Assembly (NCBI GenBank): GCA_905178155.1
Contig: CAJINV010000004.1
Span: 8,392,882-8,456,881, forward strand
DNA length: 64,000 nucleotides
Direction: 5' to 3'
Source of the DNA: Amoebophrya sp. A120
Taxonomy: Eukaryota > Protista > Dinoflagellata
A model generated the notes under the pieces. The model was not told where the DNA came from, ran no database searches, and was given only the letters and a program-made list of their open reading frames with translations. How positions within the stretch are numbered: position 1 is the stretch's first letter; every line of letters begins with the position of its first letter. Both the position numbers and the translations under genes were made by a program. Shown here one piece after another: positions 1 through 59,648 of the stretch.

Positions 1-130
1 CGGAATAGGCATCGCGAAGCCCTCAAAAAATCTGTGATGCTAGGGCATGCATCACAGACATCATGGCCAATGCAAAACATGCATGACAAGTCTCAGAATC
101 TTCCAGACCCAGACACTTTTACATTTGATA
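1..130. mobile_element. Introner family A, truncated by window start
   Basis: Right TIR TTCCAGACCCAGACACTTTTACATTTGATA; interior matches 380-644. Confidence 0.85.
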
Positions 131-1289
131 CCAGCATGCTGTTTGAGCTCCTTCCGAGATGAGCCCCCCGAATTGATGATCCCTGCAGGCCCATCGGCGT
201 ACTTCTACCGGAGAAAGAAGCTCCTGCGCCCGCGACGCCTTGCGCGGCCCAGGGCTGCTGGCTCTGGAAGAAGTTGTAGGTCGATGCCTGTGCAACTGCA
301 GGGTCGACCATTAGAGGCGCAGGAGCAATAAATTGTTGACCCGCGGGAAAAGGAACAGAGGAGCCGCGGCCGGAGCGCTTATGAAATGCAAAAGTGTCTG
401 GGTCTGGAAGAATGCAACTTGTGATGCTGAATTTGGATTCCAAAAACATCTGTATTGCATGAGCAGCAAAGGGAGCGTAATGCTTGCTACGCGGGGAGGG
501 CATTTGTCATGCGGAATAGGCATCAAGAAGCCCTCAAAAAATATGTGATGCTAGGGCATGCATCACAGACATCATGGCTCATGCAAAATGTGCATGACCA
601 CAAGTGTCAGAATGTTCCAGACCCAGACATTTTTACATTTGATAACGCTGCAGCGCCAGCAATTCCGCCTGGTTGACATCCAAGCTTGGGGGAGCTACAC
701 CGAGAAGTTCTCCCGATGATGAGCCAGGCGGCACAGAAACTCCCGCTTGATACATGAAAGCCGGCGCACCTGGTCCGCCCCGGGGGGACGCGGCGACCTG
801 CATGTTGCCACGGGGAGTGAAATATACATTGCAAATACCTCTGGGTTCTCTGGAAGTGTCTAAGGTTTGTCATGCAAGTTTTCCATGTTGACCCATGCTG
901 GCTCTGGAATGCAGCATCTAGCATGACAGATTCTTTCAGATCTTCATCATGCCTGTTCTGCATGAGAAACTCCATCTACTCACTGTGGTCAAAAGTGGAC
1001 AACTTTTGGCAATCATGCAACACAGATTTTAGATTTTTGTATCGTCCAGACTATGCATGACAGGTTTCAGCGTTCCAGACCGAGACGTATTTGCAATGCA
1101 TATGAAAGGCGGATCCCGAATCATGCCTGCGGTGATTGAGACGCCGAAAACACCAGGCGGGGCTCCTCCTGCAAGTAGACTAGAGAAATAAATTGTAGCT
1201 GCGACGGGAAACCGAAACCGAAACCGCCGGCAACGGGAAACCGCATTATCAGTTTGCTTACCGCGACTTCCTGCCACTCGTGCCGCCAT
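1..1289 (-). CDS. Hypothetical Gly/Ala/Pro/Gln-rich protein, 3' end runs off the window; exons about 1103-1289, 645-822, 131-379
   Basis: Removing 823-1102 and 380-644 plus one TSD each gives continuous ...IRDPPF|TPRGNMQ...ELLALQR|SGRGSSVP... Confidence 0.65.
380..644. mobile_element. Introner family A (265 bp)
   Basis: TIR TATGAAATGCAAAAGTGTCTGGGTCTGGAA; flanks gcgct/acgct. Confidence 0.9.
823..1102. mobile_element. Introner family A, opposite orientation (280 bp)
   Basis: TIR TAT(A/G)CATTGCAAATA; perfect TSD tgaaa. Confidence 0.85.
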
Positions 1290-3842: not shown

Positions 3843-4750
3843 TCATAAAGACGGCGACGGCACCACGACGACGGGCTCCGTCGGCGGAACGACGACCGGA
3901 GCAGTGGTCCGCCGCTGCAGAAAACTCCGCGGGCGAGACGGCACGACGACAGGCGGCGGGGCAGCGGGAGCCGGGGGAGGCGCGCTCGCGTCGGGCGGGT
4001 CGCCAAAACGATTTTTGTTCACGTCGTTCGCGCCGACAAGGTCCTTCTCTTCCTCCGCTTGTTGATTCGCGCCGCGTTCCAGAAAGTCAGGCGGCTTCTC
4101 AACATCCCGTGGCAAAAGCTCCACGCCGGCGATCGTACGTCCTTCGCCACCGTCATCACCCGCTGCAAGTTTTTCGGTCGTGTCCCCTTCGGGAAGGCCG
4201 GGAGGAGTGCTGGTTTCGAGGTTCCGCGTTTATGGATTGCAAAAGTGTGTGGGTCGAGAAGATTGTAACTTGTCATGCTAAATCCGAATCATGCAAAAAT
4301 CTGTGTTGCAGTTGCATGAGTGCCAAAAGCTGTCCACTTTCGACCAAGTTGGAAGGGAGTCGCTCCTGCAGGAGAGGCATGACAGAGACCTCACAGACTC
4401 TATCACGCTAGGCCCAGCATTCCAGACCTCATGGGCCATGGAAAGCCTGCATGGCAGGTTTACACCCTTCCAGACCGAGACACATTTGCAGTTGATAGCG
4501 TTTCCGCGATCATGTCTCCGTCCGACTCAACGATGAAGGAGCTTGCTAACCCCGGCGGCTTGTCGGCTCTCATCCACTGGCGCCCCGGCGCCGGCGGGCG
4601 GGAGCGCTTGGCGGTGGGCGATGTCGGTTTCCGCCGTTTCGGTCCGCCGTCCGTGGCCCGGAGGTCCGCCTGTCCTGCTCCCAGTGCGGGGCCCAGAGGC
4701 CAAGCCGCGCTCACAAACGGATTGGCGGCCTTGTTGGCAGGTGTTTCAGT
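3843..4750 (-). CDS. Pro/Val-rich hypothetical protein segment, copy 1; 5' end unresolved
   Basis: Removing 4231-4497 joins SFIVESDGDMIAET|RNLETSTPPG...LLPRDVE...PSPSL*; paralog at 19580-20410. Confidence 0.55.
4231..4497. mobile_element. Introner family A (267 bp)
   Basis: Perfect TSD gcgtt; paralogous site near 20246 has a single gcgtt. Confidence 0.9.
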
Positions 4751-5128
4751 CTCTTCTTATCACGATCATGAAATTCCCCCCGATTGTTCCCTGTCACTGG
4801 TTCACACTACACAGAGGAGAAACGCCCAACAGCTTGAGACGTTGAGGGCCTCGAGTGAAGACAGGCTGGCTGTGGCCACAGAGTTCATCTCGTACTGGTA
4901 CAGCAGATCGAAAAATAATATATACTCTTTTGAAGAACTACGACTTTGATTGCAGTCTTGCAACATTTTTGTGGTTGCAGCTTTGCAAAACTTGGACGTA
5001 CATAGCTCGGGTTTCACAAAACGGACACCCTGGAACCCGAGTCAAAAGATTAATATGCTTAGATTTAGAATGCATTTGGATTTTCGCTTATTTGCCACTG
5101 GAGCTCATCAGGAACAGGGGCAACGGGA

Positions 5129-8100
5129 CTAAATCTTCGCTGTGATACGCCGTGTGCTCCCTTTGCCAGTTCCTCGAGTACCGCTTGTGCAGCCGGTGCA
5201 CCCGCTGTCAGTGTCAGATGGAAACTTTTTCTCACACCGCGGCGAAAACTTAAACTCTTCTGGGTGCTCGTACTGTTTCATGCAGAGTGAGATCATGCAG
5301 CTGCAATTATATTCAACGAAGCCAGATACAGACTCACTGCAGAAGCTGATAAAAATCACAGCACTTCTTCGGAGGACTCTCGTCCTGCAAGCGGAATAAG
5401 GGAAAGCACCTTCGTCCTGCAATCGCGGTGAGAAAAGGGTTGTCCACATGATACGCACCGCTTTTTGTTTCCGGAGGCCCAAAGTTTTTTCATTGTCCCG
5501 CGCACACTTGTGCTTGTAATTCTTTGGAAGTGCCTCCATTCTTGCCACAACCTTTTGGAAAAACTTCCTGATCCAGGGGAGCCACTTTCGCCTGTTCGTC
5601 CTGTCCCAAACCGTTGCCAAAAAGAGTGAGGCCATGGTATGTTTTTCTAGCGTCGCTTTCTCAATTTCAAAGCTTCTGCCGGTCTCTTTGTCCTGAACCT
5701 TCGTTCTTACCACGAGTCCTGGGTTGTTCGTTTGTTCCGGGGCGGGCACTTGGGGGGCAGGGTTTCCTCGGTAAAAACGTCCGCGCACCCCCCAAAGGGA
5801 ATTCTGCAAGACACACCCAGGACTTTTGGGACCCATGCATGATATAAACAACCTGTGCTGGTGCTACAGGAGTGAGTTAAAAAAATTTGGCTGCGCAGGT
5901 GCAGCATGATCGTGCCCAATTACAGTCTCTGGCGCATCACAAATCCACTCTGTTGTCCTGATTTAGCGACTTTCAAGTACGGTTACAAAAACACATCCCG
6001 CTCAGGAAGAGCCCCATGAGGAACATCATGAGCACTCAGATTTGCATGACAAATCTGGGGAGATGGAGGCATTTTTAGTCAGGATACGGCGCCATCAGGT
6101 TCTCCTGCCTTCTGCCGGGGGGACACCCCCTTGTAGTCCCGCCCTTGAATCACTGCAACGATATTATCGTCAGTGGACAGGTCGTCTAGCCGGATGGCTT
6201 TCTGAAAATTGAAAATGCCCCTACCGCACCACAGCCAAGTCGCGTGGCCTACTGTAGTTGTGCGAGTGCGCTAACTCTAAAAATTGCGAGAGCAGAGGAA
6301 ACCACAGCAGAGAATTATGTGTTGGGAAAAAAGGCAGCAACAGACATGCATGCTCATCCTTGTCCTGATGTCATCTTCAAGCTGCAACGTTAGCTTCAAA
6401 GCGTAATTTGCTGTGACTGTTGCCACCAAAACCATTCCTGATGTCATAGTCATTTGTTCTGTCGTATATTTCCGCGACGTGTTTGCCTCGGTGGCACTCT
6501 GCGCTCTCCTTACGAACTATTCAAAAATACCTCTTGAGCATGGAGCGAATGGGGTGACTTTCGATCATGATAGCTTTTCTCTACCTGCTCTTGTTGGGTT
6601 GACACTCGATCCCGGATTTCTGCATCATGCAGACCTGCGTCAACTAGAAGATTGGCGTATGGCCTGCCCGGTAGATTTTCCTCCTCCGTGCCTTGGTCAG
6701 CGGGCGTGCGTGGTGACACGAAACGAACCAGCGCTCCATCCGTCCTTCCTTCGAGAATGTAACTGGGTGTGGCTGCAATTTCCTGCTCAATTTTTTTCTT
6801 GCTTTGGTTTGTCTGCGAAGTGAGGATAGCATAGCCTTCATCATACTCCGCCCCATGTGTAGGAGCGTGCACGACCTCCCGCGTCGTGATCTCGTACAGC
6901 GACCAGACTTCCCGGCTCATCATCGCGAACTCTGCTCCCTTGAACCCCTTCACCGCATACCAAGCAGGCACCATGAAAGGCGGAAGGCGACAGTCTCCCG
7001 CGTTTCGTTCTTTGCCGTCGTGCAGGTTTTTCTTCTCGCAAGGCGTCAGAACGTGCATGTGGTCAACAATAACGCCATCCAGTTGTTCTCCCGACGCAGT
7101 TTCAGGCAAGCCAAAAATGAAAAACCCGATCCGCCCTTGGCTCATTTTGTCGTTGTCTGCTTCAATAACGTAAACTGGAGTCTCTATCCCAAAGAAAAAG
7201 ACAGGCAGGGCGCATTTTTCTTTATAATGCAAAAATCCTTAATCCACCCGAAAAGCGAAAATCTGTCACGCCCGAGCCCATGGCGTGCCTTTTGGAAAAT
7301 GCACTGGCTGGACTCCGGACAAACCTGCCGCGCTGAGTGGCTCCGGCCTCTTTCTACCTCAGAAGGCTGCCGGACCAGCTCAGTCGCTCAGCAGACAGGG
7401 CGAAGACCTCGGGCTGCGTTGGCTCCTGTGCAGATTCGCTCTTCAAGGTTCACCGCCGTCGCCTTCTTCCCTCATCTTTTCCTTCGTCGTTCCATCGTCT
7501 GGGCCTCTTGCGGAGTCTTGGGTCATTAAGATCCCTACAACATTGCGGGGACTACTCCCCGCTTCGCTGCTGGTGGATTTGATTCAGGGCGGGTTCCCGG
7601 ATGAAATTTCCACTCAGAACTGGGGATCTGGATGGAATTTTCTTTCAGGATCCTCAGGGCCTGACAGCAAAGAAGCTAGGTGAAGAGGACACGCTGTTCG
7701 CGCCCCTTCATCATCATCATCAGTACATGGAAGAGTGTCTGGGAGGGTGCTGAAAGCGACAAGAGCCGCAACGCCAAAGAGCGTGGCGGAGCGAATGCAA
7801 AAGACAACACATTTTTGACGCGCGTCTAGATTTAAGCTAGGAATTGAGCCCCGCGGCGCCAGCCGCCGGCAGGGAAAGGTAAATGCAAAAATGCCGAACG
7901 TCTGCACATAACGTGGGGGGGGGTGCAAAGATGAGCAGAGCGCAGTGGGACCAGAGCGCGCCGGCAGAACAAAGCGCCCGGCAGTTCACTCCTTCTCGCA
8001 ATCTTTGACACGACAGCAACACAGACCCCTTCGTATCACCAAACTGCACAGCTACACAGTGGGAGAAGGAGTAAGCCACACTCCACAGCCCCTGGGCTGG

Positions 8101-11100
8101 GTTTTCACTCAGGGCGCGGGACCTGAGTGAAATTTTCATGCAGGTTCTCGGGTCTGGATGAAATCTTCACTCAGGATCTTGGTCCTGAATTTCAGAGCGC
8201 GAAAACGTGAAGACACCTTTTGCGTTTGTGGGGAGCAGCGGGCGCATCGGGATCCCGTAGAAGCTTCAGGCGTGCGCGGCGGTAGGGTTTGGATCACATG
8301 ACCAACAGCAACACTGTGTATCTAAATCTACCTATTATCTGCAATGGAAGAATATTAATATGACATTTTTCCAGTACAAGAAATAAGTCTGGCCTACACC
8401 TGCCTTTCTTTCTCCGTGGGATAGTATCGTCCTTGTACACGGCGATCCGCTTTCTATACTCCGTGGTTTGTGGACACCCGTCCAAACTCCGTGGCCGCGA
8501 TAGGTATGCATTGCAAATATGTTTCTTGGGTCTAGAAAGTTGTGATGCCAAAAGTGCTCGAATGATATGAAGCCTGTGCTAGAGGCGGGCCACGCATGAC
8601 AAATTTCTGTGCAGCTATGTCTAGCGTGAACTGCATGACAAGCGAGAAGCACTGTAGGAGCGCAACAAACAAGAAAGAAATGGATTGACATACCAGGGTC
8701 TCAGCGTTCTTGTCTCAACGTTCTTGAGGCCGACGGGAAATCGTCTCAACGATCGCCCGGCGACCTCAAACAACGGTCGTTGGCAGTGGCGGAGAGGTAA
8801 GCCCGCCACCATTGATGCAAGGCGAGGGCGGGCGGTGACACACAAGAGGCGCAAGAACGCGGTAACACACACACGCGCAGGGGCGCGGGCGCGAAAGAAC
8901 CCAACACAAGCAGAGGGAAGACTCGTCGGCCAGGGTCGTCGGCGGCCGGCCGGCGGCGGGTTCCCTGGCCGGCGAGCAGGACCACAAACCCCAAACCCTA
9001 GACCCTGAGCCCTAAAACTAAACGGTGCTGAAGTTGAGATGCCGCGGTCAACGTTAGAGCATTTTGTCTCATAGTTGAGACAAATGGGCGTAGTTGAGAT
9101 TCTGGTTTGTCAATGGGCGTAGTTGAATGTCTGTCTTGTCGGCCAACCAGGATAAACTTGCATTCTTCCACGACACCCAGAAATATTTGCAATGCATATT
9201 TCATCCAGGTGGCCCTGTGCCGATTTTACGCCGAGTGCCATGGCCGCGTTTGGTATCAAAGGCAAGCAGTTTCGCCTCACCAAAAATCCTGATAAGTGTA
9301 CGGCTTTACACAAATAAAAATGCATCGTCCTGCGAGTAGACGTAGACCACGAAAGAAAACATACAAATCCCCCTAGATCTTCTTCCAGTCGCTCCATAGG
9401 AGCGAAAACACACAAAAACAGAGGCTGCTGAGGTATTGGGCAACGCAATGTGATCATGACCAGCAGCCACAGCCTCGGCTTACAAAACACACAGCACGCA
9501 ACCTCTTGCGCTAACGATACTTTATGCAACATTTCAGACGAGACCGCATGTCGACGTGGACGTGGTCCACTCGTTTATTACATCTCTGGCTCGTCTCTCA
9601 CATAGGAATTTGCCATCATGGCGATTTCAAATTACAAAGGCAGCGAGCTTGTTCACTAAAACATAGTACATTGATGCTTTCTACTTCAAACAACTTCCAA
9701 CGCAAGACTGCTTCTCTACAGCGTGCGAAATCTACCTGCGTTTGATACTTCTGACAACCGCTGCAAAAAAGCCTAAAAAAAGCCGCAACAGAAAAAGCGG
9801 ACATAGGTGGGGCGCCGGGTGATTTTTTGGCACCCATCTGTCCCCGTTGCCGGCCGCAAACGCAACGGCCCGGGCTGCGATCGAAAAATCACAGGAGGTA
9901 GGCCTCTAGGGGGGCTCACTCAACGGGCGCGGCGCCTGGTGGATACTTATAGGGCGCCCGCCCGCGCGTCGGGCCGGCGGCCTTGTCCTCGGCCCCCAAA
10001 GCCGAGGCCAAGACGCGGAGCACGCAGGTGGGGCGCCGGCGGGTTTCTTGGCAACTTCGCGACTGGAGGACGGATGGTTGGATCGCAAAGGCATCGGCCA
10101 GGGCTGCGAAAGAATGAATCCCAAGAAAACTAACAAGCGGACTCGGGTGCGGCGCCGGGTGGTTTTGGGGCACCCACCTCCTACTTTCTTGCTAACGGTC
10201 CAAAACGCCACGCCCTGCGGTTCTGAAAAGCGCAAGCAGGCGGGCGGGCCACGATGCGGCGCCACCCCCCCACGCACAGAGGGCCTGCCGGGGGGCGAGG
10301 GGCTGGGAATAAGACGAAGAACAAGCAGAAGCAGGCTCCGTGGGTGGACATGGACGGGTCGGCTAGCTTGCTTGGGGGCGCGCAAAGGCCTGGGCGTCGG
10401 GGCATTATTTTCCCCAGAAGCACCACGAAACCCGCCCGCGCTGTGCCGGCGGGCCACACCCCCTGTGTGGCGCCAGATGGCCAAAGGCCTCCAAGCGGGC
10501 GCGCCATACCGTGCGCCCCAAGCGTGGGCGCATGCCCATGCGTGCGCAAAGTTCTCTCGGGCACCGCAGCGGCTGCCGAGACGCGGGCGCGGCAATGAAT
10601 CGGCGCAACCCGCTGGCGCCGAAGATAGGGACACAGAATAAACCACAAGGCAGGCCACGGCCCAACGCGGGCAAGGGCAGCGGGGGGGACTACCTTCTGC
10701 GCCTACCATAATGCTCTGCCTCACACGAGATTTGTCTGAACGCGGCCACACTTTGAAACACGCAGAAAAAAAAACGCGAATCTTGACGGTATGATCGATT
10801 TTTCTTTGGGGTCGGCAACGGCCGGGAAGATCACTCGTTTGCCCTCTATACTACAGCGTGCGAAATCTACCTGCGTTTGATACTTCTGACAACCGCTGTC
10901 ACCGTCTTCGCGGCAAGGTCGAGAACGGTGTGCGCCACCGACGCCAAATGGTCCGCCACCGACGCGGCTACAGCAGAGCCGGCAATTGCGTGGGAGCTAA
11001 AGGAAATGGCGGGCACAACAACTTTGGCGGCCGCCGCGTAACCAGCGACGACAGCAAAAGCCGGCACAACGGTGTTTCGCACGAAATCAAGGAACGGCTT

Positions 11101-14100
11101 CTCGTATGCAATGCATACATGTCTGAGTTTGGGAATATTAGCACAAACATGCCAAGAACTTGCGATGATGATGAAGATCCTATCATGCTTACTAAAAACT
11201 CGTCATCATAACAAAACTGTCATGCCAGAACAGATGAACAGGCGCTTCGGCATTACTAGTCCTGCACAGAGGCTGTATGTCAGTGTGGTCATGTGCTGCG
11301 CATGCAGAGGCGCCCACCAGTACTCTGCAAACGTCGACACCTGGATCATTTTTGCTCCACTGGACAACTGTTTCCCCATAGTGCTCTTCGAGACGCAGAC
11401 ACATTTGCGATCTGTAATTCAATAAAGCCCTTTTCCCGCTTCACAAGCGCAACGTCAACTTATGCCTTGCTCAGCTGCAACTGGAACAACTGCAGGAGGA
11501 ACAATGTACTATTACAGCTTTATGCCTGAACCCTCTTTCCCCGAACAGCATGACCACCCGCGACCCAAAATTGGTCTTCGACGCTTTTGTGTCGTGCTCT
11601 GTTTTCCTGCTCGAGGACGAATCTCATGCGCACGTAGAGAAAGGCGCAGCCCACGGAGGCTTTTCGAAGCTTCAGGGAAGCGGGGTGCGCGAGCCTGACC
11701 CCGCAGGCACATAGTGCGGCAAATTGCGAAGCGGGGCCCTACTTTGTAAAACATAACAGATGCAGCATGCTCGGGACGAATCTTGCGTAAAAATGATTTT
11801 GCAAAGCAAGGAGGCTAGGGGCTAGCCCTGCAAAGCTCGGCCGTGCTATGTCTCCCTCCGCTCATTGCAGGGGCTAAGAAGCAGCATGCGTTCGCCCGTT
11901 GGATGTTGATCTTTCTCACGCGTACAATGCTAGCGCAGACAGGGTAAAAGAGAGAACAAAGCATCCTACGGTGCCCAAGGCCGCGAAGTCTTAAACTTTC
12001 ATTTACATCGGGGGCGAAAATCCGCGAACGCGAAGCTTCAAGATTTATAACTTCATATTGGACAGGAAGGGAAGGGGGCAGGTTGGTGGGGCGACAAGCA
12101 ATCGTCTCAACGATCGCCCGGCGCGGCAACCGGGGCGAAGGTGCGCAACACAGCCAAAGGAGAGAATCGCCCGCCAGGGCGTCTGCCCTGGCCGACGACC
12201 AGAACAAACCCTAGATCCTAACCCCGAAATCTGAACGGTGCTGAAGTTGAGACGTCGGGGTCAACGTTGGGGCGTTTTGTCTAAACGTCGAGACAAATGG
12301 GCGTAGTTGAGATTGAGTCTGAGGGAGGAGTACATTACAAGCTTTGTGCCGTGGGTAATTATTTCGTGTTACTTTCGATATCTTGATAGCTTCGAATATT
12401 CTATGTGCTAAAAATCACGAACATGACTGCGCATTCAATGATGATGTTCATCGTTATTCGGCATTGTCACAGCCCATTGTTCCAACCAACATTGATGATG
12501 CTCCAGCTCCAGGGCGTGCCGTACAACTTTCAGTCCGTTTAAGGATCCCACGTCAAAGTACACGCCCTTGTTATGCAAAGAAAAAAGTGCAGCTACAGCA
12601 ACAGCTGCACGTTGTGTTGCAGACCAAGCAACAGTGGCAAGCTCTGATGTCATACACAAAATGCTTTCGAGGAGCCTCGTTTCATACGTGTTTTTCCTTC
12701 TGGTCTCTGTATTGCATTTGCAAGTTTTATTCTTTCTCGCCATGCAGAGAAAATTTGTCCTCGTGTATGCTGAATCGACAACAAATGTGTCACTGTAAGA
12801 CTTTTTTCGTGGAATACAACTCGTTCACGCACCTCCAGTCTGGCCTTCGTAATCGCGTTTCCGGCAGCGGCGTGATATGAATTGCAAAAATGTCTGGGTC
12901 TGGAAGGTGCTGACACTTGTCATGCACGTTTTGCATGAGCCATGACGTCTGTGATGCATACCCTAGCAACACAGATTTTTTGAGGGCTTCTTGATGCCTA
13001 TTCCGCATGACAAATGCCTTCTCAGCGAAGCAAAAATTGCATTCCCTTTGCTACTCATGCAATACAGATTTTTTTGGAATCCACATGCCGCATCACAAGT
13101 TGCCATCTTCCAGACCCAGACATTTTTACATTTGATACGTGATGGGCAGGCATGTCCAATCTGGGTCTTCGCTCTCGATCATACGGAAAACAGCCACCAG
13201 TCCAAGATGTTTTTCAGAATAATATAAAATGCATTTGATTTTCGACGAGGACACGAAAAATAAGGCGTTCTTGTTCTTCCATGATCTGGAACGACAAATA
13301 TAAAGTGATCCTCTTGCCAGTACGTAGTTGTAGAGGCAGCTGCAGTGCGACCTCCAACTTGGGAGGTCGGGGGGCAGCACAGAAAAAAAAAACCTCCGCG
13401 CCACTACTGATTTCTATGGAGCTTTCCTTCTGCATCTAGCTGTTGTTCCACCCTTTCTTTAACTTTATAAGCTCATTAATTTTGTGGGACGTTCATCACC
13501 TCGCTCGACGTTGACACTCTGGTGGGCTAGCAAGCTTCCGTGTGATAATATTGAGAGGAAAAATCCCCCCCCTCCCCATATTGAAAACGCATTCGCCCGA
13601 AAATTTGTGACGCAGATTTGAGGGCACAAATCCTGTCTGTATTGCAAGAAGGCAAAGCCAGAGAGTCCGCCGCATTATGCAGGCGGTTTGTGATGCTGTT
13701 GGGCTTACAGAGCCGACATCTGTCACGCTGGCCCCCTACGTCAAAACCTCTCGACCCAGGCTTGGCATATGCCTGCAGTCCTCTCCAGCAAGACAGACCT
13801 GATTTGTGTACGCAAATCCAGCATCAGAAACTTCGTTTCGATATGGGGAGGGGGGATTTTTCCCTTTGATAGATAATGAGGTCTTGGACAGCAGCAGCAC
13901 TTGTAGCTTCGTGTCCGACTGCCACCAAGGCACGAGAGTCCTGGTCCCCCTGCACGGTTTGGCGTGGAGTTCCTGGGAAAACTTTGTTCTTCACCCACGT
14001 GAAGAGACCACCGACTCCTGCGCCCTTAGCGCGATTCCATAATGATGGTTGGCGATGATCCTGCACAGCGGGCGGTGCGGAAACTGGGGCTTGTTGAGGG

Positions 14101-14850: not shown

Positions 14851-15627
14851 TCTCAAAGCACAAACAAGAAATGCAAAAAATCTCCTTACTAGTAATACAG
14901 GAAATTATAGTACAGTTTCAGTTTGAAATGTAAATCAAACAACGGCCATGAATTAGTATGTTTATAGTACTGGGTTTTTGCGCCGTTTGTTTTCCGCTTT
15001 TGTTCGCGGTGTTCTATACAGCGGCCACGGAACTGCTGCTGATGCTCTTGATGCAAAACAATCGGATACCACGTAGCTGAAAGTTCTTCCCGGCCTCGAG
15101 AGGGAGAGACTTACTTTTCACCGAATAAGCCGTGCGCGACCAGGACCAACTTGAGCGCCTTGACGGCAAGCTTCATCCTGATTTTATAATTTCCGGCGAA
15201 ATTTTTTCTCCACCCGGTCGCGCGGGTTCTTCGACAGGTCCAGTGTGCGTCTTCGTCTCTGTAGTTCTTCTCCTTTCGCACGTCGGTTGTAAATGTTCAC
15301 TCTATCTTCCACCGGTGTGGCACCGGTCGGTCTGTTGCAGAGTAGTTCGATATATATGCTTTCTGAATGTTGGAAAGGTTATGTCTAGACATTGTTGACA
15401 GCGAAAGAAGAAAAACCTCTTTTTCTCTCGGAACAAGGCATTCGTTACGTTGCTTTTTACTCAGAAACATATACACTCTCAGTTGTGATATTGCATCGAA
15501 TGACGCAAAAGTTTATCCCTACTTCTCAATATACCTTTTCTACTTCGGCGTCCTCGCTGTCCCCCCCGGTTTGGTGGATGAAGTAGCGCAGCTTCTGCAA
15601 GATTTTTTGTCCTCCCGGTGTGGCCTC

Positions 15628-16323: not shown

Positions 16324-16404
16324 GACGCCGACTTGATCTTTCTTCTCGTGCTGGTTCTCGGGGTGGCCGGTCGTCCTGGACGTCTTTGGTCTTTGTTCCT
16401 CGCT

Positions 16405-50705: not shown

Positions 50706-53700
50706 TTATTTCAACGCCATCAGCTTGGTGAAAAACAGCCCCACAGTGTTCGTCGCAATAAAGGTTTCGTCGATGATTCCCTTGACTGCCATGCCGTTCG
50801 CCTTTATGATCGTCACCTCTTCCTTGGATGCAAAAAAGTTCGCCACGTCCTCGTTTCCAATCGCATCCTGGTCGCCGGAAGTTGTACTAGATGGCAGAAG
50901 TTGCGTACTGTTCGTCGTCCCCACTCCTGCTGCAGCATCAGCCGGATTTTTCGCACGATTCACGCCTCGGTTGGCTATCACCGTGTTCAGCGTCTCCAGC
51001 AGGTGTGGGGGCAATTGCGGTGCAACGATCTTGTAGATCTCGTCTTCGTGCTGGTTGTCCTTCTGCTTGTTTTGCTGCTCGTAGTTCATCCTCGAGGAGG
51101 GCTGTTCAGGAGCCATCTGCTTCTGCTCCATGTAGCTGCTGTAGGTGGTGGGAACGGCGCCCCCTCCGGAAGAGGAAACGCGCCTGCGCTTGTTCTGGTG
51201 CTGCGCACCACTTCTTTCGAACCCGTCGTGGTCGTGGTGCCTTTCGTAATTTTTGTCACGCCCACCGCGCATCGTGGCGGCCGATGAGTTGTTATCTTGA
51301 ATTTGATCCGAAAGAACCTCGTCGGGCTCCGGGATAATGTCATTCCGGCGCTCCTCACGGTGCTGGCGGTACGAACCAGCACCTGGTTCGCGGCCTCCGC
51401 GCCGGCGGCTGCTCGTACCTCGTGGGCCCGAGGCGGCGGGTGGTTGGGTTTTAGTACTACGTGCATCTACGGCTCCTCGGAGGTTGTTGTTGGCGTTGTT
51501 ACCTGTTCTTCCCCGGCTGTGGTCTCTACTGGGATGTTGTTGCCCTCTTCCTCTCGAGTCGGTCATATTTCTACTATTCTGTGCGGTATTCATCTTGGTC
51601 GTGTGCCGGCGTTGTTCTCTAGAAGACGAGAAGTCCTTCTTTTTCTCGTTGTTTTGAACGATATCTCTATCCCGAGAAGAAGCTCTGGTATGATTATTTT
51701 TGTTCACAGCGTAGTTCTTATTGTAGTCTCTACTCTCCCTGTCCCTCCGCCGTCGTAGTTCCTCTTCTTCTTCGCGCTGTTTCTCCCTTGTTTCCGCCCG
51801 CTCGCGCTCCTCCCGCTCTCGTCGCACCCGCCGCTCCTCCCGCTCTACCCGCGCCTGCTCTTGCTCTGCCCACTCCTGCCGCGCGCGCTGCAGCTCCTCC
51901 GCCCGGTCCCGTTCTTCCTGCGCCCGCCGCATTCGCATTTGTTCCAACTCGCGCTCCACCCGTTCGCGCTCCACCCGTTCGCGCTCCGCCCGTTCGCGCT
52001 CCGCCCGCTCGCGCTCCGCCCGCTCGCGCTCCGCCCGCTCGCGCTCCTCCTTTTGCTCACGGACGCGCTGTGCCTCCCGTTCCCTCGCGGCCCGGTCCCG
52101 TTCTTGCTGGATCCGCAACTCCTCGCGCTGCCGAGCTTCCTGTTCTGCCTCACGCTGCGCTTTTTTCGCAAGTTCTTCTTGTTCCCGCAGCTTCTTCAGC
52201 CGCGCCTCCTGCTGCGCGGCCCACAGCGCGTTCTGCTCGTCGCGCTCCGCCTGCTCCTGCCGTTGTAGTCGTTCTTCCCGTTCTCGTCTCTGTTCCGCCT
52301 CCTGGTCGACGTGGCGGTTGCCCCGATAATTATTGTCTCGGCCGCGGCTGGTGTGGTTCTTTCGCGTAGTAGTGCCTTGGACGGATTGGGATTCGTGATC
52401 TCTAGTACTGCGGGCAGGGGCCGCACGGTGGCGGTCATAATTTTCCCGACGGTCAGCATGATCTCCGTGATGCGACTGTTGTTCCCGACGACCACCTCGT
52501 CCGCGGCTGCGACTGTTGTTCCTCGCCGCACGATAGTTGTTTGACGTAGTTTCTCGTGCGCTGCCACGGTCGTTGTGCTGTCTCCGGTCGTCCGTCCTGC
52601 TCCGGGGCGTCCTGCGGCGGTGGTGGTTTTCGTCTTGGTTTGGATGGTTAGTTTCCATTTGTTCGTCTCCTCGGGGCAGGTTCATAGAAACAGTACTGGG
52701 TATAGAAAAAGTACCAATACTTCCATCGGGGTTCATGATCAAAGCCTCGCCGGTGCGGACCGCGTATGTCGTCTGCACTTCTAAGGGTATGAGTTCTTCG
52801 GGGGGACAAGTGAACGTCTGCGACGCCGGGGGGAGATCCCGGGCAATGCGCTGGGCGGCGGGAGTTGTAGTTCTGTGCGTTGGCAAAAGTTCTTCCGCAG
52901 GTGGATTTTGTACAGCTTGATTTTGGTCCACCACGACGGGCGGCGGCGCGGCCGCTTTGATCGAGGATGCTTTCGCCGGTACAATCTCGCCCTTCGGAAC
53001 CCGCACGAGGCTTTCAGCATTGTCAGTCTGTTGCTGCTGTTCGCTGCCTTCCTTCGACCCCGGAACGCTTTTTGGCGGAGGCAACCGCCACCCGGTGCTT
53101 CGGCAATGTTGCGCGATCAGGGCCGCCAGCTTGGGGTTTTTCTGCACCTGCTGCTGCAATGCTGGGTTGTCCATCGGGTGAACAATCGCCGGCGGGGCTA
53201 CTTTGCTAACCGCGGGGGGTGCGGGGTTTGAGTGGTTAATATCTTCGTTCTGGTCAACTACACCTGGCGCTGCGCCTCCGCTGTTCTTCGGGGGCCGCAG
53301 ATCCTGGTCAACTACCCGTTTCGAGTTCGACAGGTCTGGCATCGCAGGAAAAAAGCGTTACAGTTACACACTGTGTTGCAGGCCAAGCAAGACAGACAAG
53401 CTCTGTCATGCCGGATATGCATAGGATCCTCGTTTCACAGGTGGTTTCCCGTAGGATTTCTCCATTACAAGTTTTCTCTCTCATGCAGAGAAATTTGTGT
53501 TGCTGAATTCACTACAAATGTGTAACTGTAACACTTTTTTCGTGGGATATCCGGGTACTGAAAAGCAGTAGAACCACGACCGCTATTTGCAGCGGGCGTT
53601 TGGTTCTGCTTTGGGTTTTTATCTTGCTGTTGTTCACGGTCTACTTGATCATGCTCGTCCCACCTCGGTCCTCTGATATTAGCCTCGGGCTCCTGGTGCA

Positions 53701-55653: not shown

Positions 55654-58600
55654 TTATGCAATAAAAACCGGTAGCTTCTGGTGAATTACGCGACGGCACA
55701 CGGGGCAGTGCTGCAGCTGCGTGGAGCATTCGTATCAAAGTGAAAAAAGCCCCCACTCCATATCGGAAACGGAGGATGCGCGAATTTGTGATGCTGTATT
55801 TGAGTACACAAATCGACTTGTATTGCTAGAAGGCCAAGAGACGAAGCTGCGGCCTAAATTGCAGGCAATCTGTCATGCTGTTTCCCACTTCCAGTTGCCT
55901 CCTGTCATCCTGGAGCTGCAAGGCTTTCCCACGCTAGACAGCACTACAGTCCGCATCTTTTGCCTTCTAGCATCACAAAGCTGATTTGTGACCACAAATC
56001 TGCATCACAGATTTCCGTTTTGATATGGGGAGGGGGCATTTTTCATTGTAATAGTTCGGGACAGCAAACCAGGTGGCAGCACGGGTAGAAGACGACCTGA
56101 CTGGTACCGTGAGGAAAGATCCCCCCTCCCCATATTGAAAACGTATGTTCCTAAAAATTTGTGATGCTGATTTGTGACCACAAATCCTGTCTCTCTTGCA
56201 AGAAGGCAAGTCCAAAGAATTCGCAGCCTTATTGAGGCGATTTGTATATGCTGTCTCACGTAGATGGCGGGCCTCTGTCATGCTAAGTGCCTACAACAAA
56301 ACACCCCTACGCAGGCTGAGGCTTTGCTTGTAGTGCCTCACTGCAAGACAGGGCTGATTTGTCTACACAAATCCAGCAACAGAAGTTTCCGTAACAATAT
56401 GGGGAAGGGGGATTTTTCACTTTGATAACTGGGCTTGTCCAGACACACACTGCACATCCGATCGGAGGAGAGAATTTCCTGAGAATTTGTCATGCTGAAA
56501 ATTTTTGCCTCCCAAACAAAACTTTATTTGGCACGCATGATAGAGCCGCTCGGAAACGGAATAAAGTAGACTCGAATAGCAGAGCATCAGAATCACCATG
56601 TGGTTATCATACATGATAATCGTACTCTGGTACAACATATTTGACACCTGCAGTTCCGATTTCTGCTGTTCGACCGCTTGGTTTTGCGCGAAAAGCTCCT
56701 CTTTGATCTTCTTCAGCGCCTCAATTTGCTGTTGGTATTCGTGCTGGTCCAGGGCCGACATTCGGCGAAACATGTGCTGCTGCCGCAACAGAATCTCGTC
56801 CGTGTTATGCTTTTTCCCCTCGAGCCAGTCATACCTGCGCTGCAACGCCGCGGCCCGGGCCTCGGAAATGGCACAGCGCTCCTTCCAGGATAAAGTGTCC
56901 AACTCCTCCTGTGATTATTTCGTTTCAAATTTATTGTATTTGGGCATGAAAACAAGTTCTCGGTTGTTACGTGCTGGGGACCATTGTCATCCTGTACGAA
57001 CAAAGCATAATGCACAGTAGGATTAAGATGTTCTTTACATCGGGCTGGGTCCATCTTCGCGTGGGCACGAAAGACAGCGATAATCATGTCGTAAAAACCT
57101 GACTTGGTTCCGGCCAGGGGGGCGGCGGCTCATCGGGGTCTACGAGTTCGGAGGACATGGCAGGAGCTTTGCTTCCAGCCATGAAACCACCTGCGTTCTT
57201 GCTGGAGGAAGATGATGAGCTGTACATCAAGTCCCGTCCTGTTGGCGCTGGACTCAAGACCGACTGCACAAACTGCGACACGTTCCTGGCCGCCTAGTCT
57301 ATGGAAGCGTCAGGATTGAAATCGTTAAAGCTGATATAGTACTATAGTTTGTGATGCATAAAATGCTAGTCGCAAAGTGCCTGTCTTGCAGACCAGGCAA
57401 CTGCGGCCGATTACAAGCCTCCTTGGGGTGTGAGATAGAGCTGCTAAAATAGCATGACAAAAGCAGTCATCTTCTCTGCTCAAACAGCATGACAAATTGG
57501 ATTTTCCATGCTGCCTTTTTTGTCATGCGCCACTTGCAAACTGGGCTCCAGCTGGTATCGCTTTTTTGCATTACAGATTATTGCAACTTTGATGATTTCG
57601 GTCCTGACACTCCCATATGGTCGAAAAGCTCCGTAAACGTGTTCGCGTTCGCGTTGTTCGCGTCGTCGGCGAATAACCTATTGGACGACCCGGTGGTGTT
57701 GCGTGGGTAGTCGTACTGAATTCTCGGTATCGCCGGGTCGAACGGGGGCCGGGCGGCACTGCTAGAGGAGGAAGAGGACGCTATCCTGAGTAAAAACGTA
57801 CCCACACCAGAGTCGGGATGGGGATTTTGCAACACAAACCTAGGAGTTTTGTGAGTCACGCATGACATAAACAGACTGTGCTACTGCGGTGAGTCACGCA
57901 TGACAAGTTTCAGTCCGTAAGGTAGTGCAAGTTAGCAAGGAAAGCCGCATCACGAATCGATCTGCTGATCCTGTTTACAGCATTACAAGTTCCCAAACAC
58001 GATTGAAAATGCCTGTCATGGGATTGCGCATCACAAATGTTCCTGTCATGGCAAATCTGCATGACAACTCTGGTGTGGGTACGTTTTTACTCAGGATAGA
58101 CGCACCAGCGGCAGCACCCGTAGTAGTTGTACTACCCGGCAGCAGCGAAAAGTATCCTGTGTAAAAACGTACCCACACGACCATAGTTGTCATGCTACTC
58201 TGCATGCTTAAAATGTTTCTCATGCGGAGCCCCATGAGAAGCATTTTCTAATGCGGTTTGGAAATCTGTAATGCGCCAATCAGCATGAGATACTAGATCT
58301 GTAATGCTGCTTAGCTAGCTCAAACAGCACTACACTACGCGTCCAAATTTGTCATGCGAAACAGCCACAGCTTATGGATTTGTCTAGCGGATTTCCTATC
58401 TTGACTCTGGTGTGGGGACATTTTTACTCAGGATAAAAAGGGCTGGATAATGGGATTCGGGCGTGGAAGATTTTGGTCCCGATGATCCCGTGGCGTCTCC
58501 GGCAAACTCCGCAGTCGCTGCCGGGCCACCGCATCGCGCTCCCGGACGATGGCCGCTGGGTCCGGTGGAATTTGCCGTGCCGAGTTGGTGTCCGATGTGG

Positions 58601-59648
58601 AATCCTCGCGGGCGGTGGAGCTCGCATATGAACTGCAAATATGTCTGGGTCTGGAAGAGTGTAAAATTGTCATGCAGATTTTCCATGGCCCATGAGATCT
58701 GGAATGGGAGACCTAGCATGACAGACTCTGTGAGGTCTCTGTCATGGCTATCCTGCAATGAGAAATTCCCTCCCAGCTTGGTCGAAAGGGGGCAGCTTTT
58801 GGCACTCATGCAACACAAACCTTTGCATGATACGGATTTAGCATGACAAGTTGCAACCTTCCAGACCCAGACATATTTGCAATGCATAGCGCACTTACCT
58901 CCGCCATGTCGTCGGAAGGAAGCTGCTGCTGCGAGGGAACTCCCGTCACACCAGTACTAGCGACATTTCTCGCCCTGCTGCTGCTACTGGATGCTTGCTG
59001 AACTGTTTGTAACTGATTCGGGAGCTGCACACCCGATGATCCCCCTCGCGAGGGCGGCGGAGCGGCCTGGCCAGTATTATTTCTACTGCCAGACGAGCTC
59101 GAAGATGGACCCCCTGCTCTACCCCCGAAAGGCGTCGAGTTTGCCAGCGCCGCGTTCAGAAATGGCTGCTGCAGTCGGGGCGCGGCGCCCAGGCCGCGAG
59201 TTTGATGATGCATCGTTGATGAACTCGAGCTGCTGGCGCTCGCTTGCTGCTGCTGTGTCCTCTGCACTTCTTGTTGCAGCTCTGCCGGAGGTGGCGGTGG
59301 TGGGGGCGGCTGCGGCTGGGCACCCTCTACTGTACCAGCGGATTGTTGTTCAAAGCCCCTCCGCCCTCGGGTACTACTCCTCGACCCTCGGCTGTAGGAA
59401 AACATGGAGCTGCTCCTGCGCCGGATGGTTGTCGTCGACGGTAGAAGCCTGCGGAATAAAGATCCAATCGCAGCAGAGGTCCTCGTCCCGGTAGTCCGGC
59501 CCCTTGCTAGCACTGCCGTCTGTTGTTCCTCTGATGTCGCTGTTGATGCCTCGGTCGTTCTACTTGTGACCGCATGTACTACAGAAGCTCCTCGTCGTGC
59601 TGTTTCGCTCCCCTCGTGTTGCGCGCTTGCCTGGTGGGGGGTCGACAT
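55654..59648 (-). CDS. C-terminal C3HC4 RING finger protein with coiled coil (putative E3 ligase)
   Basis: Reconstructed CSVCLDKPS|QVVFYPCCHLVCCPE|CSTQLQHCPVCRRVIHQKLPVFIA*; upstream exons join in frame across 4 more introners and a probable GT-AG intron near 56910-57098; junction near 56460-56644 uncertain. Confidence 0.8.
55733..56053. mobile_element. Introner family E (321 bp)
   Basis: Flanks attcg/gttcg; nearly identical to 24961-25281. Confidence 0.92.
56105..56427. mobile_element. Introner family E' (323 bp)
   Basis: Perfect TSD actgg. Confidence 0.9.
57300..57617. mobile_element. Introner family H (318 bp)
   Basis: TIR TATGG(A/G)AG(C/T)GTCAGGA..GAAATC; flanks tagtc/tggtc. Confidence 0.85.
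57782..58098. mobile_element. Introner family C (317 bp)
   Basis: Perfect TIR TATCCTGAGTAAAAACGTACCCACACCAGAGT; TSD gacgc. Confidence 0.92.
58153..58435. mobile_element. Introner family C (283 bp), intact
   Basis: Perfect TSD aaaag. Confidence 0.92.
58627..58888. mobile_element. Introner family A (262 bp)
   Basis: Flanks tcgca/gcgca; reverse-complement relative of 4231-4497. Confidence 0.9.

What the first reader, a model, noticed from the sequence alone, without database searches (positions are those of the whole stretch)
1..58888. About 45 TIR-bounded non-GT-AG introners from many unrelated families sharing one architecture
Seen: elements start TAT-N7-AAA (most families), end in the inverted copy, and are flanked by a 5-bp direct repeat of arbitrary sequence. 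Removing element plus one repeat restores conserved proteins (ULK kinase, RING). Known: inverted/direct-repeat non-canonical introners have been reported in Amoebophrya genomes, so their existence is not new; to my knowledge the excision mechanism is unresolved. Inference: one structure-guided removal system acts on all families.
Basis: partly seen in the sequence, partly recalled or inferred. Interest (0 to 1): 0.8.

Follow-up and report, generated by a model that had tools for sequence, protein, structure and literature searches.

The report
Amoebophrya hairpin introners, already described

Summary
I count 47 elements in 1-58888. They typically start TAT-N7-AAA, end in the inverted copy, and carry a 5-bp target duplication.

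For 38 of 47 there is transcript-level evidence (RNA contigs or public A120 protein models) that exactly element plus 5 nt is absent from mRNA. DNA contigs keep the elements at single-copy depth. Removal restores a ULK-type kinase motif and a C3HC4 RING.

It is not new. Farhat et al. 2021 (PMC7789003) describe these A120 introner elements, including the TAT-N7-AAA motif and 5-bp direct repeats. Gozashti et al. 2025 list 58 A120 families as TIR DNA transposons. The scan has also noted similar hairpin-bounded introns in other dinoflagellate genomes.

What I add:
- **Fixed splice register.** Imperfect duplications and decayed repeats place the cuts at exon..N1-N4 | N5-TAT...ATA-N1-N4 | N5..exon. 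That is 1 nt before and 4 nt after the element, the same 5' register as the canonical G|TAY introns here.
- **Orientation.** Both element orientations are spliced from one transcript.
- **Insertion.** A tandem paralogue supplies uninterrupted empty sites.

The enzyme remains unknown. One DNA contig lacking one element is unexplained.

The parts
1..130 (.). Right end of a family-a element, cut by the window start
   Evidence: TIR ..TTTACATTTGATA at 99-130; no transcript evidence
380..644 (-). Family-a element, TSD GCGCT/ACGCT
   Evidence: a 295-aa ORF crosses it after removal; no RNA laid
823..1102 (-). Family-a element, TSD TGAAA
3510..3848 (-). Older element-type intron of the P0003 gene, shared with the paralogue
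4227..4498 (-). Intron = family-a element 4231-4497 plus 5 nt, TSD GCGTT
   Evidence: paralogue empty site
4754..5148 (-). Older element-type intron, shared with the paralogue
5208..5454 (-). Older element-type intron G|TATCATG..ACA-CTGA|, boundaries unambiguous
   Evidence: no allowed shift, x=1
5759..6087 (-). Older element-type intron
6197..6573 (-). Older element-type intron, x in {1,0}
7181..8424 (-). Intron = 1239-nt element 7185-8423 plus 5 nt, TSD GTCTC/GTATC
   Evidence: P0003 carries the residue of the 5' copy
8501..9199 (-). Intron = element 8505-9198 plus 5 nt, repeats decayed, x in {2,1}
9250..10883 (-). 1634-nt element-type intron, x in {3,2,1}
11101..11417 (-). Element-type intron (TAC start)
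11457..12524 (-). 1063-nt element (TAC..ATA) plus 5 nt, TSD AGTTG on the gene strand
12568..12817 (-). Element 12572-12816, repeats decayed; x in {1,0}, y in {4,5}
12872..13138 (-). Intron = family-a element 12876-13137 plus 5 nt, TSD CGTGA
13173..13876 (-). Composite 704-nt intron holding family-b element 13549-13871 (TSD GATAA)
14503..14725 (-). Older element-type intron, shared with the paralogue
14798..15128 (-). Older element-type intron, shared with the paralogue
16062..16323 (.). Family-a copy without matching TSD
   Evidence: no transcript evidence
16405..16656 (.). Related copy in tandem, without matching TSD
19247..19585 (-). Older element-type intron of the P0004 gene, TSD TTCTT/TTCTC on the gene strand
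19641..19917 (-). Intron = family-a element 19645-19916 plus 5 nt, TSD AGTGG
   Evidence: RNA joint 19639>19917; paralogue empty site; one DNA contig also lacks it
20412..20800 (-). Degenerate element 20416-20799 (CAT..ATA), TSD GGTCT/CGTCT
   Evidence: RNA joint 20411>20801
20860..21199 (-). Older element-type intron G|TATCATC..ACA-CTGA|, boundaries unambiguous
   Evidence: RNA joint with no ambiguity
21510..21765 (-). Intron = family-a element 21514-21764 plus 5 nt, TSD TGGGA
   Evidence: RNA joint
21827..22094 (-). Intron = family-a element 21831-22093 plus 5 nt, TSD CAGGA
   Evidence: RNA joint; internal orientation opposite to that of 23582
22898..23154 (-). Intron = element 22902-23153 plus 5 nt, TSD CGCTA
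   Evidence: RNA contig sum check
23216..23426 (-). Intron = singleton element 23220-23425 plus 5 nt, TSD CAGAG
23578..23846 (-). Intron = family-a element 23582-23845 plus 5 nt, TSD CTCGT
24325..24565 (-). Older element-type intron, shared with the paralogue
24638..24901 (-). Older element-type intron, shared with the paralogue
24961..25281 (.). Family-b element, TSD TCTGG, 15 nt upstream of the P0004 start codon
   Evidence: no transcript evidence
27210..27499 (-). Intron = singleton element 27214-27498 plus 5 nt, TSD GGCTC/GGTTC
   Evidence: Whole in DNA contig X5 rec 14, absent from RNA contig
27528..27742 (-). Intron = family-c element 27532-27741 plus 5 nt, TSD TGAGA/GGAGA
28568..28836 (-). 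Intron = element 28572-28835 plus 5 nt; TSD CGAGG on the gene strand makes it GT..AG in this register
   Evidence: RNA join 28566>28836
35036..35279 (-). Intron = singleton element 35040-35278 (no AAA) plus 5 nt, TSD TCAGT/TCAAT
   Evidence: RNA join 35034>35279
38493..38647 (-). Singleton element, TSD CAATT
   Evidence: ORF support only
38700..38963 (-). Family-a element, TSD AATCC
   Evidence: ORF support only
39678..39886 (-). Family-c element, TSD GTCGC, splitting the ULK-type kinase domain
53336..53550 (-). Intron = element 53340-53549 (CAT..ATA) plus 5 nt, TSD TCTGG/TCCGG
   Evidence: RNA join 53334>53550 in X1 and X4
55729..56054 (-). Intron = family-b element 55733-56053 plus 5 nt, TSD ATTCG/GTTCG, inside the RING
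56101..56428 (-). Intron = family-b element 56105-56427 plus 5 nt, TSD ACTGG, inside the RING
57296..57618 (-). Intron = singleton element 57300-57617 plus 5 nt, TSD TAGTC/TGGTC
57778..58099 (-). Intron = family-d element 57782-58098 plus 5 nt, TSD GACGC
58149..58436 (-). Intron = family-d element 58153-58435 plus 5 nt, TSD AAAAG
58623..58889 (-). Intron = family-a element 58627-58888 plus 5 nt, TSD TCGCA/GCGCA
   Evidence: RNA join 58622>58890

Best explanation
These are non-autonomous foldback/TIR transposon copies (the published 'introner elements' of Amoebophrya sp. A120) that inserted into genes with a 5-bp target duplication and are removed from the transcript as introns, likely in one fixed register: one nucleotide before the TAT terminus and four after the ATA terminus.

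Shown here:
- The elements are in genomic DNA and absent from RNA.
- The amount removed is element plus 5 nt.
- The pre-insertion coding sequence is restored.
- Both orientations are removed.
- The cut register holds in this window.

Inferred:
- Because 1 + 4 equals the length of the duplication, any new insertion would be silent in the mRNA.
- The long terminal hairpin would bring the two cut sites together.
- The 5' cut (N|UAU) is likely read by the same U1-less spliceosome that cuts the canonical G|UAY introns of this genome, with no requirement for GU or AG.
- A separate endonuclease-ligase machine is the main alternative.
For: Organism. Window exons are 100% identical to proteins named 'unnamed protein product [Amoebophrya sp. 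A120]'.

Present in DNA, absent from RNA.
- RNA-like contigs (X1, X4) join 19639>19917 (277 nt), 21507>21764 (256), 21825>22094 (268), 28566>28836 (269), 35034>35279 (244), 53334>53550 (215) and 58622>58890 (267). Each equals element plus 5 nt.
- 22896-23845 loses exactly 257+211+269 nt, and 57295-58435 loses exactly 323+322+288 nt.
- DNA contigs (X5, X6; even depth near 45 and 27) carry 27214-27498 whole and many flank/element junctions.

Reading frames. ORFs cross 5, 3, 4, 2 and 2 junctions in frame after removal.

Insertion. The tandem paralogue has uninterrupted exons with one copy of the target at 4231, 19645 and 23220. Of the introns compared between the paralogues, 5 positions are shared and all 5 are degenerate copies. 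The 6 introns specific to P0004 all have perfect duplications.

Register from RNA contigs. Seven imperfect duplications are informative.
- Four keep the left (+ strand) letter at position 1: 20416, 27532, 55733, 58627.
- Three keep the right letter at positions 2, 3 and 4: 57300, 53340, 35040.

Register from protein models. For all 34 element-type introns, x=1 is allowed. 14 exclude x=0 and 5 exclude x of 2 or more.

Register from function. At 57300 any cut with k of 3 or less gives an in-frame TAG. At 55733, k=5 turns a RING Cys into Arg.

Link to canonical introns. 4 of 7 canonical introns here start G|TAY, and a duplication reading NNAGG makes 28572 a GT..AG intron in the same register.

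Hairpins.
- 26 of 27 elements have a fold z of -3.1 or lower, and the terminal T pairs with the terminal A in 20 of 27.
- The 19 older element-type introns have end-to-end duplex energies of -16.8 to -41.7 kcal/mol, against -5.7 to -14.0 for 7 canonical introns.

Orientation. 21831 and 23582 have opposite internal orientation and are both spliced from one transcript.
Against: - All informative genes lie on the minus strand of one 64-kb window, so the register rests on about 20 constraining introns of one locus.
- The lower bound k of 4 or more rests on five introns: 57300, 12568, 6197, and 5208 with its paralogous twin 20860.
- No sense-strand G.U bias in arm mismatches (131 against 133 overall; 31 against 27 in the terminal 25 nt). 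Selection on the RNA hairpin is therefore not shown.
- Two old introns (20416, 20860) fold weakly as wholes (z -1.3 and -1.5) yet are spliced.
- Arbitrary first and last intron bases (A, C, G or T at +1; AG in 2 of 34) are hard to reconcile with known spliceosome chemistry.
- X1 and X4 are labelled RNA only by guess; I infer it from uneven depth and missing introns.
- One DNA contig (X5) also shows the empty form of 19645-19916.
- In one search, four of the seven canonical control windows were offset by 1-2 nt from the true boundaries.
Confidence: 0.8

Rival explanations
1. A dedicated non-spliceosomal machine removes the elements: a structure-specific endonuclease measures from the base of the hairpin, and an RNA ligase joins the exons. 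This is what has been proposed for the nonconventional introns of Euglena.
For: - The cuts lie at fixed distances from the stem (1 nt 5', 4 nt 3').
- The terminal dinucleotides are arbitrary.
- Hairpins are strong, and end pairing is kept even in old copies.
- Removal does not depend on orientation.
- Euglena has an experimentally defined stem-plus-spacer code, N3-CAG..CTG-N5(6), whose authors suggest factors distinct from the spliceosome.
Against: - The 5' register coincides with that of the canonical G|TAY introns.
- One element with an NNAGG target is a perfect GT-AG intron in the same register.
- G is the commonest first base, 14 of 34.
- No candidate enzyme is known, and nothing in this window bears on it.
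Confidence: 0.3
2. The elements are cut out of the DNA of transcriptionally active nuclei, like ciliate internal eliminated sequences, so the RNA never contains them.
For: One contig of DNA run X5 joins 19639 to 19917, lacking element 19645-19916 plus one repeat. Removal restores the target exactly, as precise DNA excision would.
Against: - DNA contigs of X5 and X6 carry flank/element junctions, and one whole element, at the same depth as unique DNA.
- The other four RNA joints shown beside X5 have DNA depth 0.
- The cut register follows the gene strand asymmetrically (1 and 4 nt), which a transcript-level process explains more simply.
Confidence: 0.03
3. The apparent splicing is an artefact of reverse transcriptase jumping between the direct repeats across the hairpin during cDNA synthesis.
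For: A direct repeat flanking a stable hairpin is the classic setting for template switching (own knowledge, not from a call).
Against: - Reading frames, a ULK kinase motif and a RING are intact only after removal, through up to five junctions per gene. Removal must therefore happen in the cell.
- Template switching would keep the letters of the 3' repeat copy, but letters 2-4 come from the 5' copy.
- Old introns without any direct repeat are removed as precisely.
Confidence: 0.02

Closest known systems
Introner elements (IEs) among the non-canonical introns of Amoebophrya sp. A120 (Farhat et al. 2021, PMC7789003; I read sections 10-12 and 16, other passages, and supplement figure legends)
   Same: Same organism and same elements. 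The paper reports inverted repeats at the intron ends and 3-5 nt direct repeats (5 bp in the legend of Fig. S19). It reports IR motifs starting TAT, seven variable bases, then at least three As. It also reports hairpins, strain-specific families, no transposase in A120, and an unresolved splicing mechanism with no U1 snRNA found.
   Different: Nothing in kind. The paper states that the intron border position relative to the hairpin 'remains unknown' or is variable. This window gives one register (N|TAT..ATA-NNNN|), orientation independence within one transcript, and paralogue empty sites.
A120 introner families in Gozashti et al. 2025 (PMC12130899; passages and Dataset rows for 21 of the 58 A120 families seen)
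   Same: 58 A120 families. The 21 rows I saw were mostly classed 'TIR DNA, Unknown', with a few 'Unknown' or 'non-LTR'. Many are 150-350 bp, palindromic, and have mostly non-canonical annotated splice sites. One TIR family carries an integrase-like ORF, which would fit a 5-bp duplication.
   Different: In the rows seen, their automated duplication lengths vary from 2 to 5 and no splice register is given. No autonomous copy lies in this window: 123 ORFs had no transposase or integrase Pfam hit.
Nonconventional introns of Euglena (Nomura et al. 2025, PMC12501133; abstract and sections 8 and 12 read)
   Same: No GT-AG ends. Terminal inverted repeats pair the intron ends. A MITE origin is suspected. 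Spacers between the stem and the cuts are fixed and asymmetric, longer on the 3' side. The machinery is unknown.
   Different: The Euglena code is N3-CAG..CTG-N5(6) followed by a purine, with a short stem. Here it is N1-TAT..ATA-N4, with a foldback stem of tens of base pairs and no CAG/CTG motif. The lineages are unrelated. The Euglena code was tested by knock-ins; this one is inferred from sequence.
Introners of Micromonas and Aureococcus (Huff et al. 2016; as described in Farhat's discussion and from my own knowledge, paper not read here)
   Same: Non-autonomous DNA transposons with TIRs and target duplications that become introns on insertion, in either orientation.
   Different: Those use canonical splice sites, partly co-opted from the duplication. 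Here 32 of 34 are not GT-AG in the mapped register.

Membership tests
Amoebophrya A120 introner elements (Farhat 2021) | Inverted repeats of 8-20 nt or more at the two intron ends | tested here: met
Amoebophrya A120 introner elements (Farhat 2021) | IR starts TAT, then 7 variable bases, then at least 3 As | tested here: met
   logo over 46 termini; TAT in 32 and TAC in 2 of 34
Amoebophrya A120 introner elements (Farhat 2021) | Short direct repeat (3-5 nt) overlapping the exon/intron borders | tested here: met
   18 elements with an exact 5-bp repeat (17 of them by the scan, 56105-56427), a further 10 with 4 of 5; decayed in older copies
Amoebophrya A120 introner elements (Farhat 2021) | Absent from RNA-seq-supported mRNA | tested here: met
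   38 of 47 elements by RNA contigs or RNA-based protein models
Amoebophrya A120 introner elements (Farhat 2021) | Organism is strain A120 | tested here: met
   source names of proteins 100% identical to the exons
Non-autonomous TIR DNA transposon (MITE / foldback) | TIRs, a target duplication of fixed length, and multi-copy families | tested here: met
Non-autonomous TIR DNA transposon (MITE / foldback) | Empty site with a single copy of the target | tested here: met
   paralogue exons at the sites of 4231, 19645 and 23220
Non-autonomous TIR DNA transposon (MITE / foldback) | A cognate autonomous element with a transposase | not testable with these tools
   None among 123 ORFs of the window. 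The whole genome was not available to search. Gozashti 2025 report an integrase-like TIR family in A120.
U2-type GT-AG spliceosomal introns | GT at the 5' end and AG at the 3' end | tested here: not met
   No GT-AG placement is allowed for 33 of 34 element introns. In the mapped register GT occurs in 14 of 34 and AG in 2 of 34.
U2-type GT-AG spliceosomal introns | Lariat formation at a branch point, spliceosome dependence | not testable with these tools
   Contigs cannot show lariats. The raw RNA run X8 did not cover the genes.
Euglenid nonconventional introns | 5'-N3-CAG ... CTG-N5(6)|R signature | tested here: not met
   Termini are N1-TAT..ATA-N4. The logic is alike, but this is not a member.
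Ciliate-type internal eliminated sequences (DNA-level) | Absent from the DNA of expressing nuclei | tested here: not met
   Elements sit at single-copy depth in DNA contigs. One exception is unexplained (19645-19916).

The most novel reading that the evidence does not exclude
Amoebophrya A120 splices its transposon-derived introns by a fixed, non-GT-AG 'stem plus spacer' code: cut 1 nt before TAT and 4 nt after ATA. The two spacers add up to the 5-bp target duplication of the transposon, so every new insertion is erased exactly from the mRNA. This is the same logic as the N3-CAG..CTG-N5 code recently defined by experiment in Euglena. Two distant protist lineages would then have arrived at, or share, a ruler-type intron removal that reads a hairpin rather than splice-site dinucleotides.
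Probability: 0.5. Interest if true: 0.65.

Novelty: already known. Interest (0 to 1): 0.35.

Why it matters
The elements are a striking case of transposons that can invade coding sequence at no cost because the cell removes them exactly from the RNA. How they are removed has been open since 2021.

The finding as written adds nothing to the published description. The register worked out here turns the open question into concrete tests:
- It predicts the exact intron ends for tens of thousands of A120 introns, which would improve gene models. One model in this window misses its RING domain.
- It predicts which letters of imperfect repeats appear in the RNA.
- It predicts that spacer changes of one base would break splicing.
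- It argues against a reverse-transcription artefact.
- It links the 5' cut to the canonical 5' splice site, and it offers a direct comparison with the Euglena code.

Tried and rejected
- **RNA holders.** The look-up of sequencing runs listed no holder on record as RNA. X1-X4 are RNA by guess only.
- **Raw RNA run X8** (same species label): it laid only on a 35-nt TIR and on no gene, so it gave no read-level starts, lariats or strand information.
- **Second lay.** The joint table was filled by DNA repeat joints, so I could not check further loci for DNA empty forms. RNA joins there come from the piece table only.
- **ORF-continuity test with shifted deletions.** Too noisy to be decisive for most single elements, because of dense introns and many chance ORFs. 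Replaced by multi-junction ORFs.
- **Sense-strand G.U bias.** None found.
- **Conservation of intron termini between paralogues.** Termini 69-70%, middle 63%, exons 62%; no conclusion.
- **P0002 for the 27214 repeat mismatch.** The two variants are synonymous, so it is uninformative (and my reading of the codons).
- **Pfam on P0002-P0005.** No family. The RING is not in the public model, and I did not send the joined ORF to Pfam, so the RING rests on the C-x2-C-x11-C-x-H-x3-C-x2-C-x6-C-x2-C pattern.
- **In-window paralogue as the source of the DNA empty-site contig.** Rejected: only 81% identical there.
- **The search of earlier findings.** Nothing on this genome. Similar notes exist on other dinoflagellate genomes.
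- **Print search for a resolved mechanism or register.** Searches 'Amoebophrya'+'introner', 'Amoebophrya'+'non-canonical introns'+'splicing' from 2021 and 'introner'+'hairpin'+'non-canonical'+'dinoflagellate' from 2021 found none. Roy et al. 2023 (Curr Biol) is not in the library and was not read.

Full report
**What is there**

The window is 64 kb of Amoebophrya sp. A120. Exons at 27743-28564, 6513-7178 and 58890-59651 (minus strand) are 99-100% identical to proteins that NCBI names 'unnamed protein product [Amoebophrya sp. A120]', on a contig of 11.76 Mb.

Inverted-repeat scans show many 150-320-nt elements whose ends are inverted copies of each other. A scan with no motif assumption (5-bp flush direct repeat plus at least 14/20 complementary termini) gave 30 hits, against 0-5 in 20 shuffles; 17 of the 30 start TAT. 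A scan requiring the TAT/TAC-N7-AAA motif at both ends gave 22 hits, one spurious. 26 of 30 shuffles gave 0 and four gave 1 or 2.

Over 46 termini of 23 elements, positions 1-3 are T 44, A 46, T 44, and positions 11-13 are A 40, 42, 46. BLAST puts 31 elements into 13 clusters (11, 4, 4, 2, 2 and 8 singletons) that share only the termini. The elements are foldbacks over their whole length: 2006 of 2724 aligned arm positions are Watson-Crick.

**How many**

Sequence scans alone gave about 30. Exact mapping of four public A120 proteins onto the window (P0002 680 aa, P0003 971 aa, P0004 961 aa, P0005 613 aa) gave 38 introns. Four are plain canonical GT-AG introns; the other 34 are of the element type, of which one (28572) also allows a GT-AG placement. 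The 34 include decayed copies that I had missed.

**Removed from RNA, present in DNA**

The run search returned contig sets of two kinds.
- X1-X4 have very uneven depth and lack introns, canonical ones included. I treat them as transcript assemblies, although the tool labels them RNA only by guess.
- X5-X7 have even depth and break at repeats, as genomic DNA does.

RNA contigs skip exactly element plus 5 nt at 19645, 21514, 21831, 28572, 35040, 53340 and 58627. By arithmetic on contig coordinates the same holds at 22902, 23220, 23582, 57300, 57782 and 58153.

DNA contigs hold 27214-27498 whole, and they hold the flank/element junctions of 35040, 38493, 53340, 55733, 56105, 57300 and 58627 at the depth of unique DNA. 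Counting the protein models, which were built from RNA-seq according to Farhat et al. (methods passage), 38 of 47 elements have transcript-level evidence.

**Proteins restored**

After in-silico removal, ORFs run through 5 junctions (648 aa), 3 (570 aa), 4 (385 aa), 2 (237 aa) and 2 (295 aa).

The kinase exon downstream of 39678-39886 matches Pfam Pkinase from profile position 84, starting exactly at the element edge. Its best solved relatives are ULK1 and ULK2 (E 4e-37); the next non-ULK hit is at 7e-26. The upstream exon ends ..EYCNG, the junction codon is GGC, and the downstream exon starts DLSSY, a continuous kinase subdomain.

No RING pattern exists in any raw frame. The exon chain given by RNA contig X4 record 8 yields a 593-aa ORF ending in C-x2-C-x11-C-x-H-x3-C-x2-C-x6-C-x2-C, which two elements interrupt. 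I did not run Pfam on that joined ORF.

**They are insertions**

P0003 and P0004 are tandem paralogues, identical at 438 of 1072 alignment columns.
- Five intron positions are shared, and all five are decayed elements.
- 13 are P0003-only.
- 6 are P0004-only, and all six have perfect 5-bp duplications.

At the sites of 4231, 19645 and 23220 the other paralogue has an uninterrupted exon with one copy of the target. No transposase or integrase family was found in 123 ORFs, so the copies here are non-autonomous.

**Where the cuts fall**

With a perfect duplication the cut is ambiguous over six positions, which is why the literature leaves it open. Three lines of evidence resolve it here.

1. *Seven imperfect duplications with RNA contigs*. 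On + strand coordinates, letter 1 in the RNA comes from the left copy at 20416, 27532, 55733 and 58627. Letters 2, 3 and 4 come from the right copy at 57300, 53340 and 35040. All these genes are on the minus strand. On the transcript, therefore, letters 1-4 come from the upstream copy and letter 5 from the downstream copy.
2. *Protein models*. For each of the 34 element introns I listed all cut positions that reproduce the public protein. A start one base before TAT/TAC is allowed in all 34. Fourteen exclude a start at the T. Five exclude a start two or more bases before it (12568, 6197, 5208, 20860, 57300). P0003 also carries the residue coded by the upstream copy at 7185.
3. *Function*. At 57300 any cut that takes letter 4 from the downstream copy makes an in-frame TAG. 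At 55733, taking letter 5 from the upstream copy replaces a RING cysteine by arginine.

Where the 3' ATA, or a one-letter variant, can be seen in decayed copies, it lies four bases before the 3' cut. This holds at 12568, 8502, 9252, 4755, 7182, 3514, 19251, 11105 and 20416, and plausibly at 5208 and 20860.

The intron is therefore N-TAT...ATA-NNNN, and 1 + 4 equals the duplication length. In this register the first base is G 14, C 8, T 8, A 4, and the last two bases are AG in only 2 of 34.

**Mechanism**

*Shown:* removal at the RNA level, exact restoration, orientation independence (21831 and 23582 are opposite in orientation and lie in one transcript), and a single register across families a, b, c and several singletons.

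*Consistent with a structural role:*
- 26 of 27 elements fold far better than shuffles, with z of -3.1 or lower.
- All 19 older element introns keep end-to-end duplexes of -16.8 to -41.7 kcal/mol, against -5.7 to -14.0 for 7 canonical introns. Four of the control windows were 1-2 nt off register.

*Pointing to the ordinary 5' splice-site reader:*
- 4 of 7 canonical introns here begin G|TAY.
- The element with target NNAGG (28572) is GT..AG in the same register.
- G is the commonest first base.

*Against a simple story:* there is no G.U bias on the sense strand (131 against 133), and arbitrary first and last bases do not fit known spliceosome chemistry.

I therefore commit to hairpin-assisted splicing in a fixed register. 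I hold the U1-less spliceosome as the more likely catalyst (about even odds) and a dedicated endonuclease-ligase route as the main rival. DNA-level excision and reverse-transcriptase template switching are unlikely. The DNA keeps the elements, and template switching would keep the downstream repeat letters, which is not what is seen.

**Comparison with what is known**

- *Farhat et al. 2021* describe exactly these elements in A120. They report IRs of 8-20 nt and DRs of 3-5 nt, with 5 bp in the legend of Fig. S19. [quoted passage not shown] They count 29,850 copies making up 17% of the genome, and they found hairpins, no U1 and no transposase. The legend of their Fig. 3 says the border position 'remains unknown'.
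- *Gozashti et al. 2025* list 58 A120 introner families. In the 21 rows I saw, most are 'TIR DNA, Unknown' and automated duplication lengths run from 2 to 5. They also describe a TIR family with an integrase-like ORF. An integrase-type enzyme would fit a 5-bp duplication; this is my inference.
- *Euglena* is the closest system outside the genus. Its nonconventional introns have an experimentally defined code, N3-CAG..CTG-N5(6). The logic is the same, the motif and spacers differ, and this is not a member.
- *Searches.* My three searches for a resolved mechanism or register found nothing. Roy et al. 2023 was not available to read.

**Unexplained**

One contig of DNA run X5 joins 19639 to 19917, so it lacks element 19645-19916. 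The in-window paralogue is only 81% identical there. Polymorphism in the culture, slippage loss between the repeats, or a hairpin-skipping artefact are all possible. I could not follow it up.

**Verdict**

The finding itself is already known. The fixed register is a modest, testable addition that rests on one locus.

Noticed in passing
window 55325-59648 (minus strand): The public A120 gene model P0005 (613 aa) reads through 56647-56420 and ends without a RING. RNA contig X4 record 8 instead splices a canonical 169-nt GT-AG intron (56478-56646) and two elements, giving a 593-aa ORF with a C-terminal C3HC4 RING. The published model is probably wrong at its 3' end.
   Followed up: partly
window 19639/19917: One contig of DNA run X5 (mean depth 42.9) lacks element 19645-19916 plus one repeat copy, although the assembly carries the element. 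The other four RNA joints listed beside it have no DNA support.
   Followed up: partly
window 3003-15176 and 18953-24946 (minus strand): Two tandem paralogous genes of unknown function (P0003, P0004; identical at 438 of 1072 alignment columns; no Pfam family). They share 5 intron positions and differ in 19. They make a small natural experiment on intron gain.
   Followed up: yes
window 21830-21864: Raw RNA run X8 (same species label) laid only on this 35-nt TIR (96 reads, all partial) and on no gene of the 20 kb. It is probably another strain or a host-dominated library that carries a related element copy.
   Followed up: no
window 16062-16656: Two related element copies in tandem without matching target duplications. 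Their right flanks are alike (GACGC and GACGT), which suggests a local duplication rather than two insertions.
   Followed up: no
window 13173-13876: A composite 704-nt intron. A young family-b element (13549-13871, perfect TSD) sits at the 5' end of a longer, older intron. The 5' cut falls one base before a TAT that lies in the element's own target duplication.
   Followed up: partly
window 45292-46866 (minus strand); 62282-62671 (minus strand): An ORF with an RRM_1 domain (E 1e-8) and an ORF with a weak SPRY match (E 5e-4, below the Pfam cut-off). The genes at 41-53 kb carry few or no elements.
   Followed up: no
all mapped genes: Every gene mapped in the window is on the minus strand. This fits the unidirectional gene clusters reported for Amoebophrya, but it means the cut register could not be tested on plus-strand genes.
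   Followed up: no
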